From: a virus
Length of the DNA stretch: 64,000 nucleotides
Strand: one strand, 5' to 3'
Virus record (IMG/VR): IMGVR_UViG_3300021197_001442
Span: 1 to 64,000 of that record
Made by a program: the position numbers and the translations under genes. Shown here one piece after another: positions 14,302 to 22,234 of the stretch. Position 1 is the first letter of the stretch. Each line of letters starts with the position of its first letter. Below the pieces are notes generated by a model, which was given only the letters and a program-made list of their open reading frames with translations, ran no database searches and was not told the DNA's origin.

Positions 14302-14601
14302 TTATTCTTTGTCTTCGACCTTCTTCTTCCTGGTATACTTTCTCTTAGGAGCAGGGCTCTTTACCGCAGACTCCTCCACAACAGGTGTTTTTTTTACCGC
14401 TGGCTTTGCCTTTGGCTTAGGTGCTGGCTTAGCGACTGGCTTAGCGACTGGCTTAGGAGCAGGGGGTGCGGGTGGTGTGGGTGGTGTGGGTTCGCCCCAA
14501 CCTAGCTTTCCTCTAATCTCTTTGGCTTCAGCGCTAAACTCATCAAGCGTAGCTAGTTTCTCTTCAAGTGCTTTGCGTTTTGCGCGTGCTATAAACTTCA
14601 T
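14302..14601 (-). CDS. Small basic Pro/Ala/Lys-rich protein
   Basis: KPVAKPVAKPAPKPKAKPAVKK...KRKYTRKKK; AAGGA SD and own ACTATTTA motif at 14636-14643. Confidence 0.7.
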   Translation of the reverse strand: MKFIARAKRKALEEKLATLDEFSAEAKEIRGKLGWGEPTPPTPPAPPAPKPVAKPVAKPAPKPKAKPAVKKTPVVEESAVKSPAPKRKYTRKKKVEDKE

Positions 14602-14644
14602 TTTTTTATAATCCTTTAACCATAGTGGTTTGTAATAAATAGTT

Positions 14645-14875
14645 TTATTCTTCGGAAGAGTCCCCAGAGATTTCTGTAACTGCTGCGATCATCTCGCGGA
14701 AGTTCTCTAGTATGTTCTTTTGTCCCTGTAAAAGTTGGGCGACTTGTTCTTCCAAAGCTGCCACTCTGTTTTTTAAGGCTGGCTGGTTTTTTTCTTCCTC
14801 ATGTTCTTTCTCTAATTTTCTTGATATTTCGTGTATCTCTTCTATTCCGCTTACACTTTTAGGCATACTTCTCAT
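14645..14875 (-). CDS. Hypothetical coiled-coil protein, 76 aa
   Basis: AGGAG SD; preceded by a sigma70 promoter; LKNRVAALEEQVAQLL heptads. Confidence 0.75.
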   Translation of the reverse strand: MRSMPKSVSGIEEIHEISRKLEKEHEEEKNQPALKNRVAALEEQVAQLLQGQKNILENFREMIAAVTEISGDSSEE

Positions 14876-14917
14876 TTATTTCTCCTAAGTTAATATTCCA
14901 TATTTGGTGGTTATTAT

Positions 14918-14946
14918 AATATAACGACTTTTATTAATAATGTCAA
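14918..14946 (-). promoter_or_regulatory. Sigma70-type promoter
   Basis: TTGACA (14946-14941), 17-nt spacer, TATATT (14923-14918). Confidence 0.8.
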
Positions 14947-14957
14947 GTCTTAAATAT

Positions 14958-14989
14958 AAGAAATCCCCCAACCCTTCTGGGTTGGGGGA
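14958..14989 (-). terminator. Rho-independent terminator
   Basis: TCCCCCAACCC-AGAA-GGGTTGGGGGA 11-bp stem followed by TTTCTT. Confidence 0.85.
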
Positions 14990-15020
14990 CTAAAGATAGA
15001 TAAGCGCTAGGCTTTATTTA

Positions 15021-15626
15021 TCAGGAAGTACCAGTAGTAGTTGAAGCTCCTGCGTCAGGCGCGGCTGTACCAGTGGTAGCCATACCGTATGCCATACAGT
15101 GAACCAAGTTGGCTTCAAGGTAAGTGAACTCGTATATCGAGCCGATTGCACCACCTGCTGCCGTGACATCATCAGCATCAATCTCAAGAGACTGTGCGTT
15201 TGCTGTGATTGTAAAACCTTCAACATCATTGCCATCAAGAGTGCTTAGGTACAGCTGCCCGACCAACACACAAGTGCCTGAATCTGCAAATCCAAGCTTA
15301 AATGCTGTCGTTGACCAGTTAGTTGTGCCAACGATGATTTTAATTTTCATTCCGACATTTAATGCGGTAGCATCCGGCAATGTAATCGCGCCAGCTTGTG
15401 CTGTATTCGCGTACCAAACAAGATCTGATGCTGTTGCGGTTAAATCTTCAGCGCCTGTACCAGACTGCTCTACGACGTTACTGTTACGCAAGCCTCCGCT
15501 GAAAGTAGCGACTGCACTAGTTGTAATAGTACAATTCGTCAACGTCGTGTTCACAAGGTTAAGGTCTCTATCGACCGCCTCAAGTAGAGCTTCAAGACGC
15601 CCTAATCCCATTCTTCGATTTCCCAT
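15021..15626 (-). CDS. Putative capsid decoration / head-associated structural protein
   Basis: Directly after the MCP; AAGGAG SD; Thr/Ala/Gly-rich body with a short basic helical N-terminus. Confidence 0.5.
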   Translation of the reverse strand: MGNRRMGLGRLEALLEAVDRDLNLVNTTLTNCTITTSAVATFSGGLRNSNVVEQSGTGAEDLTATASDLVWYANTAQAGAITLPDATALNVGMKIKIIVGTTNWSTTAFKLGFADSGTCVLVGQLYLSTLDGNDVEGFTITANAQSLEIDADDVTAAGGAIGSIYEFTYLEANLVHCMAYGMATTGTAAPDAGASTTTGTS

Positions 15627-15655
15627 TTTAATTTCTCCTTTAAGTTAAGTTATCG

Positions 15656-15750
15656 ATAACCTGATTATAATCGCGAATATAGACCAGCCACTTCGATCTA
15701 TGTTCTTTAAGGGTCAGTGGCCCCGACCCCGAAGAAAACTTTCAAGTCAC
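15656..15750 (-). ncRNA. Candidate structured leader RNA with kissing loops
   Basis: Closing stem GUGACUUGA/UCAGGUUAU; hairpin GGGUC/GACCC with loop GGGGCCACU; hairpin GAACAUAGAUC/GGUCUAUAUUC with loop GAAGUGGCU; loops complementary (GCCACU/AGUGGC). Confidence 0.55.
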
Positions 15751-15753
15751 ATA

Positions 15754-15761
15754 TAAATAGT
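15754..15761 (-). promoter_or_regulatory. ACTAHTTA candidate late promoter giving a ~125-nt leader
   Basis: ACTATTTA just downstream of the MCP terminator. Confidence 0.65.
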
Positions 15762-15782
15762 TTCCAGTTTTAGCATAAGCAT

Positions 15783-15811
15783 AAAAAAACCCGCCCTCCG
15801 AAGAGAGCGGG
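15783..15811 (-). terminator. Rho-independent terminator after the major capsid gene
   Basis: CCCGCTCTC-TTCG-GAGGGCGGG (C-UUCG-G tetraloop) followed by T7. Confidence 0.9.
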
Positions 15812-15838
15812 CTTAGCCTTAGCAAGGCCGGTTAGCTA

Positions 15839-17701
15839 TCAGCTACCAGACTCACCGAGGAGGCCACGACACACGACAAGACCGTACATATCAGGACGAA
15901 CCATCTTCTTGGCGTACCGGGTCATGACACCCTTACGAGGCACAAAGTCCTCAGTACCGAAGATAGTCGGCGTGACCTGGAGCGGCACGTATGGAGCGTA
16001 AACATAGCCGCTCTCAAGGAACGAGCCACCCTTACGACCAACGAGGACCAGGTTACGCGGGAAGTACGGATCGACGTACACGTCGAACTTCTTGGAGACA
16101 GAGCCAACGTTCACAGCACCCACCGTGCCACGATCAGCATCAGCCGTCACGGAAGCGCGGAAGCCAGCGGTGAACTCAAGGATGTTGGCAACCTCAGGAG
16201 ACGTAACGAGGAAGTTTGCACCACCACGCAGGGTCTTTCTGTGGATCTGAGCCGACACATCGTTGATGGTCTCGATCAGAGTCTCGTACCACTCGGAAAC
16301 CGTACCAGTGAAGTCAGGAGCAGCCGAAGTTGCACCAATCTCAGCACCAGTGGTGCGGTTCACGAAGAGGCCTGGAGAGCGTGACCAGTAGAACGTGCCA
16401 GCGGTAGCACCCTTAATAAGGTCGTTCACGATCTCACGGTCGATCTCAAGAGCAATCTGCTCAGAGAGAATCGAGGTAAGCTCAACCTCAGCGTCAAGGT
16501 TGTGGTACGCGTTCAGGTCCTGACCAAGCTCAGGTGACCACTTGGCCTTGAGCTTCTTGGTCACAGCCGTCACAGCGATACTGTCCACCTTGATGTCGAT
16601 TTCAGGGATGGCATCCTTGTCGGTGTCATCACCCGTACCGTCGCGTGGGGTGTCGGTCGCAAGCTCCAGAGGCCATGAATGAGCGCCCTTCACACCACCA
16701 ACTGCATCAGCAGCGTCAAAGCTGTCAGCGACAGGGAACTCAAGATCGAGAGCAGACGTACCACTGTTATCGAAGCTGGAGTTACCAACAACGTAGAAAG
16801 TAATATGCTGATCCTTAGAACCGGCAACCAATTCGCCATTAGAATCACGATAACCAAACTCAGTGAGTCTACGAACGACGCGTGCAGCACCTGCGTTAGC
16901 ATCGAGAGCAGTACCATCAGCGTCCGTGAGGTTCAGTGCTGTTGTGTTCTCCTTGTTGATATCGAGCATCTGAGCAGCAGTAAGCTTGACAATGATAGCA
17001 GCGACGTGATCAGTTCCGGTTCTACCCAGAACATCGGGGTCGAATCGAAGCTGGCGCTTTTGTGCTTCTGTAAGTGCGGAAATATCAGTTGGATCCTGGG
17101 TTATAGGCCCACCGTATTCTGTACCGTCAGCATCAAAATACTTTTGGGTTCCCATGGATCCAATCGCAGTACTATCCTGAACGTCTAGAACCAACGAACC
17201 AGTCGGAGAAGTGTAGCCTGTCGATAGGTTGTAGAAGCCAGTGTCCAGGATGTCTGTCACACCATCGACAAGGCCCTTACCGACAACTCCACCACCGTAC
17301 ACAGATTCACCAGCGCGGAACGCACCGTGGTCCGACTCGGCAGAAGAAACGCCGTATCTATCATCAGTGAACGTGAAGTCCAGGAAGAAGATGAGGCCTG
17401 CGGGCAAGCTCATCGGCTGGACGGAAACGAGATCGTTGGCCAAAAGACCACCGAAAACACGACGGACAATCGGGAATGCAACGGCAGCGAAGCCCTCGAC
17501 ATCACCGGACGCCATCGTAGAAGCCTCACGCAGAAGCTCCTTAGCCTGGTTCTCAAGCAGGCGGCTCATCGACGCACGCTCACGATCGTTGGAAATACCC
17601 TCAAGAAGGCCTGTGGCCTCCCACTTAGACTGAAGCGCCGCGCCTTCCTTTGCAAGATCGCGGTCAACAATGCCTTCAGTCAATTTCTGTAAAATAGACA
17701 T
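15839..17701 (-). CDS. Major capsid protein (T4 gp23-like)
   Basis: LVSVQPMSLPAGLIFFLDF, KLKAKWSPELGQDLNAYH.LDAEVELTSILSEQIALEIDREI, GYVYAPYVPL, PRKGVMTRY; AGGAGG SD. Confidence 0.97.
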   Translation of the reverse strand: MSILQKLTEGIVDRDLAKEGAALQSKWEATGLLEGISNDRERASMSRLLENQAKELLREASTMASGDVEGFAAVAFPIVRRVFGGLLANDLVSVQPMSLPAGLIFFLDFTFTDDRYGVSSAESDHGAFRAGESVYGGGVVGKGLVDGVTDILDTGFYNLSTGYTSPTGSLVLDVQDSTAIGSMGTQKYFDADGTEYGGPITQDPTDISALTEAQKRQLRFDPDVLGRTGTDHVAAIIVKLTAAQMLDINKENTTALNLTDADGTALDANAGAARVVRRLTEFGYRDSNGELVAGSKDQHITFYVVGNSSFDNSGTSALDLEFPVADSFDAADAVGGVKGAHSWPLELATDTPRDGTGDDTDKDAIPEIDIKVDSIAVTAVTKKLKAKWSPELGQDLNAYHNLDAEVELTSILSEQIALEIDREIVNDLIKGATAGTFYWSRSPGLFVNRTTGAEIGATSAAPDFTGTVSEWYETLIETINDVSAQIHRKTLRGGANFLVTSPEVANILEFTAGFRASVTADADRGTVGAVNVGSVSKKFDVYVDPYFPRNLVLVGRKGGSFLESGYVYAPYVPLQVTPTIFGTEDFVPRKGVMTRYAKKMVRPDMYGLVVCRGLLGESGS

Positions 17702-19004: not shown

Positions 19005-19307
19005 TCAGTTTCCTTCCTTCTGACGTAACTTTTTAAGGGTCGCTTCTCTGCGTAATCTTTGTTTTCTTCTCTTTGTCGAGGGTTTCTCAAAGAAACGTCG
19101 CTTTTTATACTCGTCTGCGATCCCACTCTTCTTGATTTTACGAAGAAATCTTTTAATTGTTTTTTCTATCGGCTCGTTGCCTTTAGGTTCTACGGTAACA
19201 TGACTTGGCTTATTTCCCGTTGTGGGTAACTTTCTTGGTCTGTACTCATAGTCTCTCTTGTCTCTGCGTGAATAGCCACTATGATGACTATTTTTTCTAT
19301 AACCCAT
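19005..19307 (-). CDS. rpsU: Phage-encoded 30S ribosomal protein bS21 with basic N-terminal extension
   Basis: VTV...NEPIEKTIKRFLRKIKKSGIADEYKKRRFFEKPSTKRRK matches the bS21 pattern (E.IE.ALKRF.RK..K.GI..E.R.R..YEKPS.KR). Confidence 0.9.
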   Translation of the reverse strand: MGYRKNSHHSGYSRRDKRDYEYRPRKLPTTGNKPSHVTVEPKGNEPIEKTIKRFLRKIKKSGIADEYKKRRFFEKPSTKRRKQRLRREATLKKLRQKEGN

Positions 19308-21182: not shown

Positions 21183-21812
21183 TTATTTTCTTAATACCTC
21201 ATTCATTAACATGTGTAAACTCGTAGCTTTGTTCTGCTCACCGAGAGATATACTCATCGCTGGGCTTTTGTTATACCCACCGGTAACCGGGCGTATGAAA
21301 GCTCCAGGTGCAGATGGGTCTGATACCACATCAAAGCAAATTAAATTAAAATCATCCTCTACAATAACGTGCTTGCCTTTATTCCTGACAGAACCAAGGC
21401 CTCTAGAGGAGATGCCTATACCACATGCAGACTCTGCTAATGCTTTGAGCGTTCTGCCAGAAGGCGTGTTTAGTACCTCTAGCTTGCCCATAACATTATT
21501 ACCTTCCCACCAAACCTCCGTGATTAAGTGAGAACAATTCTTCAACTCAACCACGGAGGTGTCTGGATGGTCTAACTCACCAAGCGCTCTACGAGACTCG
21601 ATAAGCCTTTCATAGTTTTTCATTTCTCTTGCGAGTATATGCTTAGGGTAAATTCTTCCATTACCGTTCGGTTCTTCAGCAACCTGAATCTTCCCGGTCA
21701 TGTAAAAGGTTTTACCTTCGGACATTCTTTTTTTCTCACTCTCTGTTAGGTAATCGGGACAAACTCCACCATCACAAAGAGCAAAGTATTCTGTTAATAA
21801 CTTTTTAGACAT
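21183..21812 (-). CDS. Prohead core protease (T4 gp21-like)
   Basis: NGNGRIYP, ALGELDHP, LNTPSG, GISSRGLGS, FDVVSDPS motifs. Confidence 0.95.
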   Translation of the reverse strand: MSKKLLTEYFALCDGGVCPDYLTESEKKRMSEGKTFYMTGKIQVAEEPNGNGRIYPKHILAREMKNYERLIESRRALGELDHPDTSVVELKNCSHLITEVWWEGNNVMGKLEVLNTPSGRTLKALAESACGIGISSRGLGSVRNKGKHVIVEDDFNLICFDVVSDPSAPGAFIRPVTGGYNKSPAMSISLGEQNKATSLHMLMNEVLRK

Positions 21813-21936: not shown

Positions 21937-22234
21937 ATCTCACCCCCTTTTCTTGGATTAACATGCTCAACATGAATGCAGTCCCTGAACTAACGCAAGC
22001 ACAAATTAAAAAGTTCGCTAGCGTGTAGTCAAAAGTAAATAGTTCCGTCCACCGGTTAATCAAAAATAAAAACCACCCAACATGAAAACCCATGCAAAGT
22101 GAGCAGTGGAACAACTTACCAAACCCTCCCAGCCAATCACGGCTAGGCCTTATCTTATTAAAAATACTTGCATATACAATGCCAAACGTCATACCATAAG
22201 ACGCTAGCACAAACCATAACAAATCCATTATCAC
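21905..22234 (-). CDS. Small membrane protein with CxxC (DUF1360-like)
   Basis: Three hydrophobic segments; LFHCSLCMGFHVG. Confidence 0.55.
   Translation of the reverse strand: MIMDLLWFVLASYGMTFGIVYASIFNKIRPSRDWLGGFGKLFHCSLCMGFHVGWFLFLINRWTELFTFDYTLANFLICACVSSGTAFMLSMLIQEKGVRYVTTVQHLKS

What the first reader, a model, noticed from the sequence alone, without database searches (positions are those of the whole stretch)
15627..15761. Kissing-loop structured RNA in the long leader of the gene after the major capsid protein
Seen: a ~125-nt non-coding leader, whereas most motif-to-start distances here are 18-41 nt. By eye it folds into a closing stem (GUGACUUGA 15750-15742 / UCAGGUUAU 15664-15656) enclosing two hairpins whose loops are complementary over 6 nt (GCCACU 15721-15716, AGUGGC 15692-15687). 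The 3' strand of the closing stem can instead pair within the palindrome GUUAUCGAUAAC just before the AAGGAG SD. Established: three-way junctions with loop-loop pairing occur in riboswitches and viral assembly RNAs. Inference: an undescribed switch or protein-binding element setting decoration-protein stoichiometry; I do not recognise it as a known family.
Basis: partly seen in the sequence, partly recalled or inferred. Interest (0 to 1): 0.72.

Follow-up and report, generated by a model that had tools for sequence, protein, structure and literature searches.

The report
Kissing-loop mRNA leader in marine phages
The long untranslated leader before the gene that follows the major capsid gene is a real, conserved, folded RNA found in at least 177 sequence variants in marine T4-like phages. 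Its two hairpin loops pair with each other, it carries a built-in mask for the ribosome-binding site, and it matches no catalogued RNA family.

Summary
The fold alone is unremarkable (z = -1.9), but comparison with relatives is decisive.

**Conservation.** The same roughly 105-nt element occurs in 177 distinct leaders from IMG/VR and marine metagenomes. It always lies between an ACTAnTTA late-promoter-like word and a strong SD, ahead of a gene that starts MGxRR. That gene follows the major capsid gene directly in 221 of 227 loci.

**Structure.** P2 and P3 show many compensatory changes. P1 is 96% paired.

**Loop-loop pairing.** It is 100% paired across 90 distinct sequences. The two inner positions covary in four forms (CA/UG, GG/CC, CC/GG, CG/CG), although the scans left them free.

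**Known families.** Rfam 15 has no match at E<=10.

**New here.** Junction J1/2 carries a conserved anti-SD (UUCUCCUU against AAGGAGAA). It is the best SD partner in 51 of 52 leaders. The SD-masked and SD-free folds are predicted to be nearly equal in energy.

**Best reading.** This is a cis-acting translational control leader of a virion-surface, spike-like protein. It is a new RNA family of a known kind. The trigger of the switch, the transcription start, and whether the loops pair in cis or in trans are untested.

Earlier notes of this scan hold no look-alike of this RNA on other DNA.

The parts
15839..17701 (-). Major capsid protein gene (620 aa), directly upstream
   Evidence: phrog_138 major head protein, E=5e-71. 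An MCP gene lies directly upstream of the RNA in 221 of 227 related loci with enough flank.
15787..15814 (-). Intrinsic terminator of the capsid gene: 12-bp stem, then a T run
   Evidence: Terminator scan. The matching position in relatives also holds a G+C hairpin followed by a T run.
15754..15761 (-). ACTATTTA late-promoter-like word, 6 nt before ACUUG of P1
   Evidence: 12 copies on the minus strand and none on the plus strand, mostly just upstream of genes. ACTAnTTA precedes the element in all relatives read. The transcription start itself is inferred, not shown.
15742..15750 (-). P1 5' strand. The core, ACUUGA, is 15747-15742.
   Evidence: RNAalifold predicts P1 without being told. Cells are 95.8% paired in 90 sequences, and the changes are mostly A-U to G-U.
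15731..15741 (-). J1/2 with the anti-SD. It reads UUUUCUUC here and UUCUCCUU in most relatives.
   Evidence: It is the best SD-complementary site in 51 of 52 leaders. Mean duplex energy is -10.1 kcal/mol, against -4.6 for the best other site and -4.6 for shuffles. In this window it is -6.1.
15710..15730 (-). Hairpin P2 (GGGGUC/GACCCU) with the 9-nt loop L2, GGGGCCACU (15724-15716)
   Evidence: 4 of 5 P2 pairs show compensatory changes. L2 consensus is G-R-G-G-C-N-N-C-U.
15702..15709 (-). J2/3, purine-rich (UAAAGAAC)
   Evidence: Conserved as UAGAAAG, UUGAAG or UUAAAG in most subtypes, but not in the CC subtype.
15679..15701 (-). Hairpin P3 (AUAGAUC/GGUCUAU) with the 9-nt loop L3, GAAGUGGCU (15694-15686)
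   Evidence: 5 of 7 P3 pairs show compensatory changes. L3 consensus is G-A-R-G-N-N-G-C-U.
15716..15721 (-). Kissing segment of L2 (GCCACU). It pairs with AGUGGC at 15692-15687 in L3.
   Evidence: All 540 cells are paired. Pair 35/68 reads CG 78 and GC 12; pair 36/67 reads AU 68, GC 13 and CG 9. All 177 distinct leaders have complementary inner dinucleotides. The 18 non-complementary pattern hits are all chance matches in coding sequence.
15665..15678 (-). J3/1 (AUUCGCGAUUAUAA)
   Evidence: Conserved in subtype-specific forms, UCAUUGA.. or UUCGYGAUUA... In the UCAUUGA subtypes GAAUA can pair with UAUUC of J1/2 as a tentative P1b, supported only by wobble-type changes.
15656..15664 (-). P1 3' strand. 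The core, UCAGGU, is 15664-15659.
   Evidence: Same evidence as for the P1 5' strand.
15649..15660 (-). P4 palindrome and hairpin GUUAUCGAUAAC, overlapping the outer P1 pairs
   Evidence: Two forms occur, GUUAUCGAUAAC and GUUAUUGCAAUAAY. The closing pair is G-C or G-U about equally often, which fits an RNA hairpin. P4 is absent in the CC subtype.
15635..15640 (-). Shine-Dalgarno sequence AAGGAG
   Evidence: Sequence. All homologues have GGAG 4-14 nt before the ATG.
15021..15626 (-). 201-aa gene under the leader: a conserved N-terminal helix module (MGNRRMGLGRLEALLE..) plus a beta-sandwich
   Evidence: AlphaFold2 mean pLDDT 83, with a helix at 8-22 and a beta domain at 51-201. VIA-align Z 8.8, 7.9 and 7.8 to a phage KP1 baseplate protein, CBA120 TSP4 and the Pa223 capsid spike. 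The N-terminus is shared by at least six unrelated C-terminal domains.
14962..14991 (-). Terminator closing this one-gene unit
   Evidence: 13-bp stem followed by a T run.

Best explanation
The region 15650-15751 (minus strand) is the structured 5' leader of a one-gene late transcription unit. That unit encodes a virion-surface, spike- or decoration-like protein.

**Shown**
- The RNA folds as a three-way junction: closing helix P1, a short hairpin P2 and a longer hairpin P3.
- The two 9-nt loops form a 6-bp loop-loop helix (GCNNCU with RGN'N'GC).
- The 5' junction strand J1/2 holds a pyrimidine run that is the complement of the gene's own SD.

**Inferred mechanism**
- The leader toggles between two folds.
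- In the compact kissing-loop junction P1 is closed, the anti-SD is held in the junction and the SD is free, so translation is on.
- In the open form the anti-SD pairs with the SD while P4 forms, so translation is off.
- The 5'-terminal P1 helix would also shield the mRNA end from decay.

The RNA folds 5' to 3' and P1 can close before the SD is made, so the default is probably 'on'. Whatever weakens the junction or the kiss would turn translation down. Candidates are a protein, Mg2+ or temperature. The trigger is unknown.
For: **Conservation and covariation**
- 177 distinct leaders were found.
- RNAalifold finds P1, P2 and P3 without being told.
- 95.7% of cells are paired, against 81.5% in shuffles and 32-47% when partners are slid.

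**Kissing helix**
- It is 100% paired, with two compensatory positions.
- The pattern scan that found the sequences left those positions free.
- Loop-agnostic scans gave the same result.

**Cis role**
- The element always lies between ACTAnTTA and SD-ATG.
- It stays with the MGxRR gene when another gene is inserted after the MCP gene.
- The host record of 95 kb holds one copy.

**Anti-SD**
- J1/2 is the best SD partner in 51 of 52 leaders, at -10.1 against -4.6 kcal/mol.
- It is kept even in the CC subtype, whose other junction strands differ.

**Two folds**
- Ensemble P(SD unpaired) ranges from 0.00 to 0.98, with mean 0.46.
- E(anti-SD:SD) minus E(SD free) has a median of +1.2 kcal/mol. It is within 3 kcal/mol in 38 of 52 leaders, and +1.9 in this window.

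**SD use**
- 37 of 46 ORF starts in the window have an SD word.
Against: - There is no experiment, and the transcription start is not mapped.
- Anti-SD and SD hardly vary, so their pairing cannot be tested by covariation.
- In this window's own subtype the anti-SD is weaker (UUUUCUUC, -6.1 kcal/mol), and the SD is predicted to be 95% free.
- ViennaRNA ignores the kiss and tertiary contacts, so the near-equal energies are rough.
- Pyrimidine-rich junction strands could be conserved for tertiary reasons.
- Relatives carry quite different structured leaders before the same gene family. That also fits a plain stabiliser role.
Confidence: 0.55

Rival explanations
1. Passive leader. The 5'-terminal helix and compact fold only protect a heavily used late mRNA from 5'-end-dependent decay, or enhance initiation. 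There is no switching, and the CUCC run serves the tertiary fold.
For: P1 starts about 6 nt after the promoter-like word. The other leader classes before the same gene in relatives all begin with a hairpin 5-7 nt after that word. In this window the SD is predicted to be 95% free.
Against: A stabiliser needs neither a 6-bp covarying kiss nor an exact SD complement kept across subtypes. The near-equal energy of the two folds in most members would then be a coincidence.
Confidence: 0.2
2. Protein-binding operator. A phage or host protein binds the kissing-loop complex and sets translation. Candidates are the gene's own product, through its Arg-rich N-terminus MGNRRxGxxR, or the phage bS21. This would be autogenous or assembly-coupled control, like T4 gp32 on its leader pseudoknot.
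For: The unpaired loop residues are invariant (G-R-G in L2; G-A and the 3' U in L3). The Arg-rich N-terminal module always accompanies the RNA. A bS21 gene lies 3.4 kb away.
Against: The same N-terminal module occurs with unrelated leader classes, so it is not specific to this RNA. It is modelled as an amphipathic helix, which suits a capsid anchor or a coiled coil. No binding was tested.
Confidence: 0.15
3. Metabolite or ion riboswitch. The three-way junction with docked loops forms a ligand pocket, as in purine riboswitches, and ligand binding fixes P1 and frees or masks the SD.
For: The architecture is the same: P1-P2-P3 with L2-L3 docking and an SD-based expression platform. Junction strands are conserved within subtypes.
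Against: Junction strands J2/3 and J3/1 differ completely in the CC subtype, while the loops and anti-SD are kept. That argues against a shared pocket. There is no Rfam hit. The regulated gene is a structural protein with no metabolic link.
Confidence: 0.07
4. Pairing in trans. The two complementary loops pair between molecules, as in phi29 pRNA, giving dimers or rings. Alternatively the element works at the DNA level, as a palindromic operator or a recombination site for cassette swapping.
For: The loops have the 9-nt/6-bp format known for intermolecular kissing (own knowledge: HIV-1 DIS, phi29 pRNA). P2 (5 bp) and P3 (7-11 bp) differ in length. A constant leader lies in front of swapped C-terminal cassettes.
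Against: The element is part of an mRNA, with the SD 10-40 nt downstream. Variation that tolerates G-U fits RNA pairs and not DNA palindromes: pair 38/63 reads UA 53 and UG 37, and the P4 closing pair is G-C or G-U. T4-like packaging needs no pRNA (own knowledge).
Confidence: 0.03

Closest known systems
Purine riboswitch aptamer (Rfam RF00167)
   Same: A three-way junction closed by P1, with two hairpins whose loops dock on each other. P1 stability is coupled to an SD-masking platform.
   Different: The loops here are 9 nt and form 6 Watson-Crick pairs, not 7-nt loops with 2 G-C pairs plus base quadruples. The junction strands are long (8-14 nt) and vary by subtype. No ligand is known. cmscan gives no match even at E<=10.
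phi29 pRNA (packaging RNA)
   Same: A phage RNA with a helix formed by its paired ends, a three-way junction, and two loops whose complementary bases covary among relatives. It is linked to head formation.
   Different: pRNA is a free non-coding RNA of phi29-like podoviruses. Its 4-nt loops pair between molecules to form a ring on the connector. The element here is an mRNA leader in T4-like myoviruses with 6-nt complementarity. There is no Rfam match. The comparison rests on my own knowledge.
T4 gene 32 leader pseudoknot and T4 soc/e/49 masking hairpins
   Same: T4-type phage genes whose translation is set by an RNA structure in the leader: operator binding, or masking of the ribosome-binding site. 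soc is a capsid decoration gene.
   Different: Those are an H-type pseudoknot or simple hairpins, not a kissing-loop junction. In soc, e and 49 the late promoter starts inside the hairpin to unmask the site. Here the late-type word lies upstream of the whole structure. The comparison rests on my own knowledge and on the mention of gp32 in PMC10690425.
HIV-1 DIS and ColE1 RNAI/RNAII kissing loops
   Same: A 9-nt loop made of unpaired 5' purines, a 6-nt pairing core and one 3' residue. L3 (G-A-[RGNNGC]-U) has exactly this layout.
   Different: Those act between two molecules, and the DIS core is self-complementary. Here two different loops of one RNA are complementary to each other.
Unnamed candidate structured RNAs of IMG/VR (Fremin, Bhatt and Kyrpides 2023, PMC10690425)
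   Same: Same data source and same kind of object: covarying intergenic structures upstream of phage genes.
   Different: That catalogue of 10,006 candidates is not held here in readable form. The text describes only leaders of gp20, gp32 and a few others. Whether this motif is listed there cannot be told.

Membership tests
Any Rfam 15 family | Covariance-model match at or near the gathering score | tested here: not met
   cmscan of 14500-17000, both strands, E<=10. Nothing falls inside 15627-15761. The only hits nearby are weak terminator-like matches at 15781-15867.
Purine riboswitch (RF00167) | P1-P2-P3 three-way junction with L2-L3 loop docking | tested here: met
   RNAalifold consensus and covariation of P2, P3 and the loop-loop helix.
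Purine riboswitch (RF00167) | Conserved junction pocket and 7-nt loops, scored by the family model | tested here: not met
   No match at E<=10. The loops are 9 nt, and the junction strands differ between subtypes.
Hammerhead ribozyme | Catalytic core CUGANGA ... GAAA at the junction | tested here: not met
   The core words are absent from the junction strands. No Rfam hit.
phi29 pRNA | Match to the family model; a free RNA gene in a phi29-like genome | tested here: not met
   No Rfam hit. The element is followed by SD-ATG within an mRNA, in a T4-like genome with a phrog_138 MCP and an S77 prohead protease.
phi29 pRNA | Loop-loop pairing is intermolecular | not testable with these tools
   Covariation cannot distinguish pairing in cis from pairing in trans.
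SD-sequestering translational riboregulator (a functional class) | An upstream segment complementary to the gene's own SD | tested here: met
   J1/2 is the best partner in 51 of 52 leaders, at -10.1 against -4.6 kcal/mol for other sites and shuffles.
SD-sequestering translational riboregulator (a functional class) | Two mutually exclusive folds of similar stability | tested here: inconclusive
   Met in silico only: mean P(SD free) 0.46, range 0.00-0.98, and median energy difference +1.2 kcal/mol. The energy model leaves out the kiss.
SD-sequestering translational riboregulator (a functional class) | Change of translation on switching | not testable with these tools
   This needs a reporter, toeprinting or probing.
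Phage capsid spike or decoration protein (the downstream gene) | Fold related to known virion-surface spike domains | tested here: inconclusive
   Foldseek top hit is the Pa223 capsid spike, E=4e-3. VIA-align gives Z 8.8, 7.9 and 7.8 to a KP1 baseplate protein, CBA120 TSP4 and the Pa223 spike, well above the next group at Z 3.4. The fold is shared with tail proteins, so a location on the capsid is not shown.

The most novel reading that the evidence does not exclude
The kissing-loop junction may be a sensor of unassembled spike protein. In this reading the conserved Arg-rich N-terminal peptide (MGNRRxGxxR), which always accompanies the RNA, binds its own leader when it is not yet anchored on capsids and tips the leader into the SD-masked fold. 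Synthesis would then be tied to capsid assembly. A second possibility is that the two loops pair between molecules, as in phi29 pRNA, giving RNA dimers or rings.
Probability: 0.12. Interest if true: 0.85.

Novelty: new variant of a known kind. Interest (0 to 1): 0.68.

Why it matters
Structured leaders with proven tertiary pairing are rare in phage late genes. Marine T4-like phages without cultured members are a large, poorly understood group.

This motif is abundant, with 177 variants in a capped sample. It is compact, at about 105 nt. It has a loop-loop helix with textbook covariation and an obvious expression platform.

That makes it a ready subject for structural work and for testing how a phage tunes a capsid accessory protein against its major capsid protein.

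It also marks a constant 'leader plus N-terminal anchor' cassette border, behind which very different surface domains are exchanged. Finally, it would add a family to RNA databases that currently miss it.

Tried and rejected
- **Single-sequence folding.** z = -1.88, not convincing on its own.
- **First MAFFT alignment of 15 leaders.** It misaligned the CC subtype, and RNAalifold saw only P2. I replaced it with 50 representatives and a covariance-model alignment.
- **First IMG/VR pattern.** Too loose, mostly chance hits.
- **INPHARED phages.** No DNA relative of the leader region and no protein relative of the 201-aa product. The nearest cultured MCP is Flavobacterium phage immuto, at 48%.
- **Pfam and PHROGs on ten downstream proteins.** Nothing, except a sub-threshold Laminin_G_3 hit in one.
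- **P1b helix (UAUUC/GAAUA).** Only wobble-type variation supports it, and it is absent in this window's subtype, so it stays tentative.
- **Extension of P2 by J1/2-J2/3 pairs.** Checked by eye; not consistent across subtypes.
- **First constrained fold for the SD-paired state.** It did not enforce the pairs. I redid it with explicit pairs.
- **N-terminus as a T4-type capsid-targeting or protease-cleaved tag.** An L-x-E site is present here (LLE) but not in most relatives. Not pursued.
- **Earlier notes of this scan.** No look-alike of the RNA on other DNA.
- **Supplement of PMC10690425.** Not held.

Full report
**1. What is in the window.**

All genes run on the minus strand. The 620-aa major capsid gene (15839-17701; phrog_138, E=5e-71) ends in a strong intrinsic terminator (15814-15787).

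After the terminator come, in order:
- the word ACTATTTA (15761-15754)
- a 127-nt non-coding stretch
- AAGGAG (15640-15635)
- the ATG of a 201-aa ORF (15626-15021)
- a second terminator (14991-14962)

ACTATTTA occurs 12 times on the minus strand and never on the plus strand. It usually starts 22-48 nt before a start codon. It therefore behaves as a phage late-promoter word, and this leader is unusually long.

The minimum-free-energy fold shows the closing stem with two hairpins. Its z-score of -1.88 is not significant by itself. Rfam 15 gives no hit in the leader, even at E<=10.

The window is part of a 95-kb IMG/VR virus record, estimated 41% complete.

**2. Relatives.**

Searching IMG/VR with the downstream protein and with the MCP brought in related contigs. 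Their post-MCP intergenic regions showed the same leader, with different loop sequences that stayed complementary.

I then scanned IMG/VR with a pattern that fixed only the flanks of the loops and left the two inner loop positions free in both loops.
- The scan gave 115 distinct hits.
- Every real hit (promoter word, SD, MGxRR ORF) had Watson-Crick complementary dinucleotides: CA/UG 70, GG/CC 13 (12 after one chance match is removed), CC/GG 12, CG/CG 1.
- All 18 non-complementary hits, and two complementary ones, were plain chance matches inside coding sequence.

Two further scans said nothing at all about the loops. One was in IMG/VR and one in JGI, ENA and TARA metagenome contigs.
- They returned 85 and 102 real elements.
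- All had complementary loops.
- The outer kissing positions never changed.

Altogether there are 177 distinct full leaders.

**3. Structure.**

RNAalifold on 50 representatives predicts P1, P2 and P3 without being told.

On a covariance-model alignment of 94 hits (90 distinct; the model does not include the kiss):
- 95.7% of cells pair, against 81.5% in column shuffles and 32-47% when partners are slid.
- P2 has compensatory changes in 4 of 5 pairs, and P3 in 5 of 7.
- P1 is 95.8% paired and varies mainly between A-U and G-U.
- The loop-loop helix is paired in all 540 cells. Pair 35/68 reads CG 78 and GC 12. Pair 36/67 reads AU 68, GC 13 and CG 9. Pair 38/63 reads UA 53 and UG 37.

The loops are 9 nt: L2 is G-R-G-[GCNNCU] and L3 is G-A-[RGN'N'GC]-U. 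The unpaired loop residues are also invariant.

The G-U tolerant variation here and in P4 (closing pair G-C 73, G-U 76) points to RNA pairing, not a DNA palindrome.

**4. Context.**

The host record holds one copy. In 221 of 227 loci with enough flank the MCP gene lies directly upstream. In four loci another gene is inserted, and the RNA stays with the downstream gene. The element therefore belongs to the downstream gene as its 5' leader.

Only 11 of the 80 closest MCP loci carry it. Other relatives have the same kind of gene (N-terminus MG[ST]KR[VI]G[LW]AR...) behind at least three other structured leaders. All of these begin with a hairpin 5-7 nt after the promoter word.

**5. The regulated gene.**

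The product has no Pfam or PHROG family. It has more than 240 marine homologues, all unnamed.

AlphaFold2 (mean pLDDT 83) gives an N-terminal helix (residues 8-22), a poorly defined linker and a beta-sandwich (51-201).

The sandwich matches these domains:
- a phage KP1 baseplate protein, Z 8.8
- CBA120 TSP4, Z 7.9
- the Pseudomonas phage Pa223 capsid spike, Z 7.8
- a tailspike of Acinetobacter phage Solidus, Z 6.7

All are well above the next group at Z 3.4. Foldseek ranks the Pa223 capsid spike first, at E=4e-3.

Across the 93 IMG/VR loci with the leader, the first 15-25 residues are constant. They are followed by at least six unrelated domains, giving products of 149-299 aa.

A virion-surface spike or decoration protein with a constant anchor and exchangeable distal domain is the best reading. 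Its location on the capsid is inferred from gene position only.

**6. How it may work.**

The strand between P1 and P2 carries UUCUCCUU in most members (UUUUCUUC in this window). This is the complement of AAGGAGAA.
- It is the best SD partner within the leader in 51 of 52 representatives.
- The mean duplex energy is -10.1 kcal/mol, against -4.6 for the best other site and -4.6 for shuffles of the same window.
- It is retained in the CC subtype, whose J2/3 and J3/1 are quite different.

Partition-function folding of the leader plus 21 nt gives two competing folds.
- Fold A has P1 closed and the SD free. In many members an inner helix UAUUC/GAAUA also forms.
- Fold B has the anti-SD paired to the SD, with P4 and a small hairpin formed.

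The probability that the SD is unpaired ranges from 0.00 to 0.98, with mean 0.46. With explicit constraints, E(B) minus E(A) has a median of +1.2 kcal/mol, an interquartile range of 0.1-3.0, and is +1.9 in this window.

These are nearest-neighbour estimates that ignore the kiss, so they are indicative only.

Together they fit a cis-acting translational switch in which the kissing-loop junction holds the anti-SD away from the SD. P1 also provides a base-paired 5' end, if transcription starts where the promoter word suggests. SD-led initiation is the rule in this phage: 37 of 46 starts have an SD word.

**7. Rivals.**

A pure stabiliser, a protein operator, a ligand riboswitch and trans pairing or a DNA role are weighed in the rival section. 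The operator idea is compatible with the main model, because the protein would be the trigger.

The riboswitch idea suffers because the junction strands are not conserved between subtypes.

Cis and trans pairing of the loops cannot be told apart by covariation. The unequal lengths of P2 (5 bp) and P3 (7-11 bp) keep the trans option alive.

**8. Comparison with known systems, and novelty.**

The architecture is closest to the purine riboswitch aptamer and, among phage RNAs, to phi29 pRNA. The loop format is that of HIV-1 DIS-type kissing loops.

Membership in any Rfam family was tested and not met.

A 2023 survey predicted 10,006 unnamed structured RNAs in IMG/VR (PMC10690425). Its lists are not readable here, and its text does not describe this motif. 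Prior listing under a number therefore cannot be excluded.

I rate this a new family of a known kind: a structured, SD-masking mRNA leader with a kissing-loop three-way junction.

**9. Verdict.**
- The structure and the loop-loop pairing are established by covariation.
- The cis-regulatory role is well supported by context.
- The switching mechanism is plausible but inferred.
- The trigger is unknown.

Noticed in passing
window 19005-19307 (-): A phage-encoded ribosomal protein bS21 (Pfam PF01165, E=1.4e-14) with a roughly 37-aa N-terminal extension. It lies in the head gene cluster near the S77 prohead protease gene (21183-21812). Phage bS21 genes in head clusters have been described for freshwater phages (PMC9723584). 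bS21 sits next to the SD/anti-SD helix of the ribosome, so it could bear on SD-dependent late translation.
   Followed up: partly
L037, L040, L047, L050, L068, L074, L102 (class II); L035, L063, L067, L073, L079 (class III); L049, L072, L092, L097, L099 (class IV): the region between the MCP stop and the next ATG: Relatives with the same N-terminal module on the post-MCP gene carry three other conserved structured leaders instead of the kissing-loop one. Each begins with a hairpin 5-7 nt after the ACTAnTTA word. Classes II and III share GACAUGAUUAUAAA before the SD. None was analysed for covariation.
   Followed up: partly
window, minus strand: 61565, 41717, 41701, 37819, 33857, 22043, 19809, 18966, 15761, 14643, 11477, 8479: ACTATTTA occurs 12 times on the coding strand and never on the other, mostly 22-48 nt before starts, so it is a likely late-promoter word. 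The copy at 22043 lies about 230 nt before the prohead protease start at 21812, which is a second long leader in this window.
   Followed up: partly
L028, L034, L042, L054, L057, L065 (also L015, L040), 20-30 nt upstream of the ACTAnTTA word after the MCP terminator: A shared word resembling TTTTTGAGATTTT lies between the terminator and the late word in several relatives. It is absent from the window. It may be an extra promoter or activator site.
   Followed up: no
window 15021-15626 and the homologous ORFs in L007-L343: The first 15-25 residues (MGxRR[LIM]GxxR[LI]..) are constant. They are joined to at least six unrelated C-terminal domains, giving products of 149-299 aa. One of these has a sub-threshold ConA-like lectin match. 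In L002-L005 the window's C-terminal domain also occurs in other gene contexts. This looks like cassette exchange of a surface domain behind a constant leader and anchor.
   Followed up: partly
window 14918-14946 (-) and ORF 14645-14875: A near-consensus sigma-70-type promoter (TTGACA, 17 nt, TATATT) lies right after the terminator of the spike-like gene and before a 76-aa ORF with no family match. It may be an early or host-polymerase unit inside the late head cluster.
   Followed up: no
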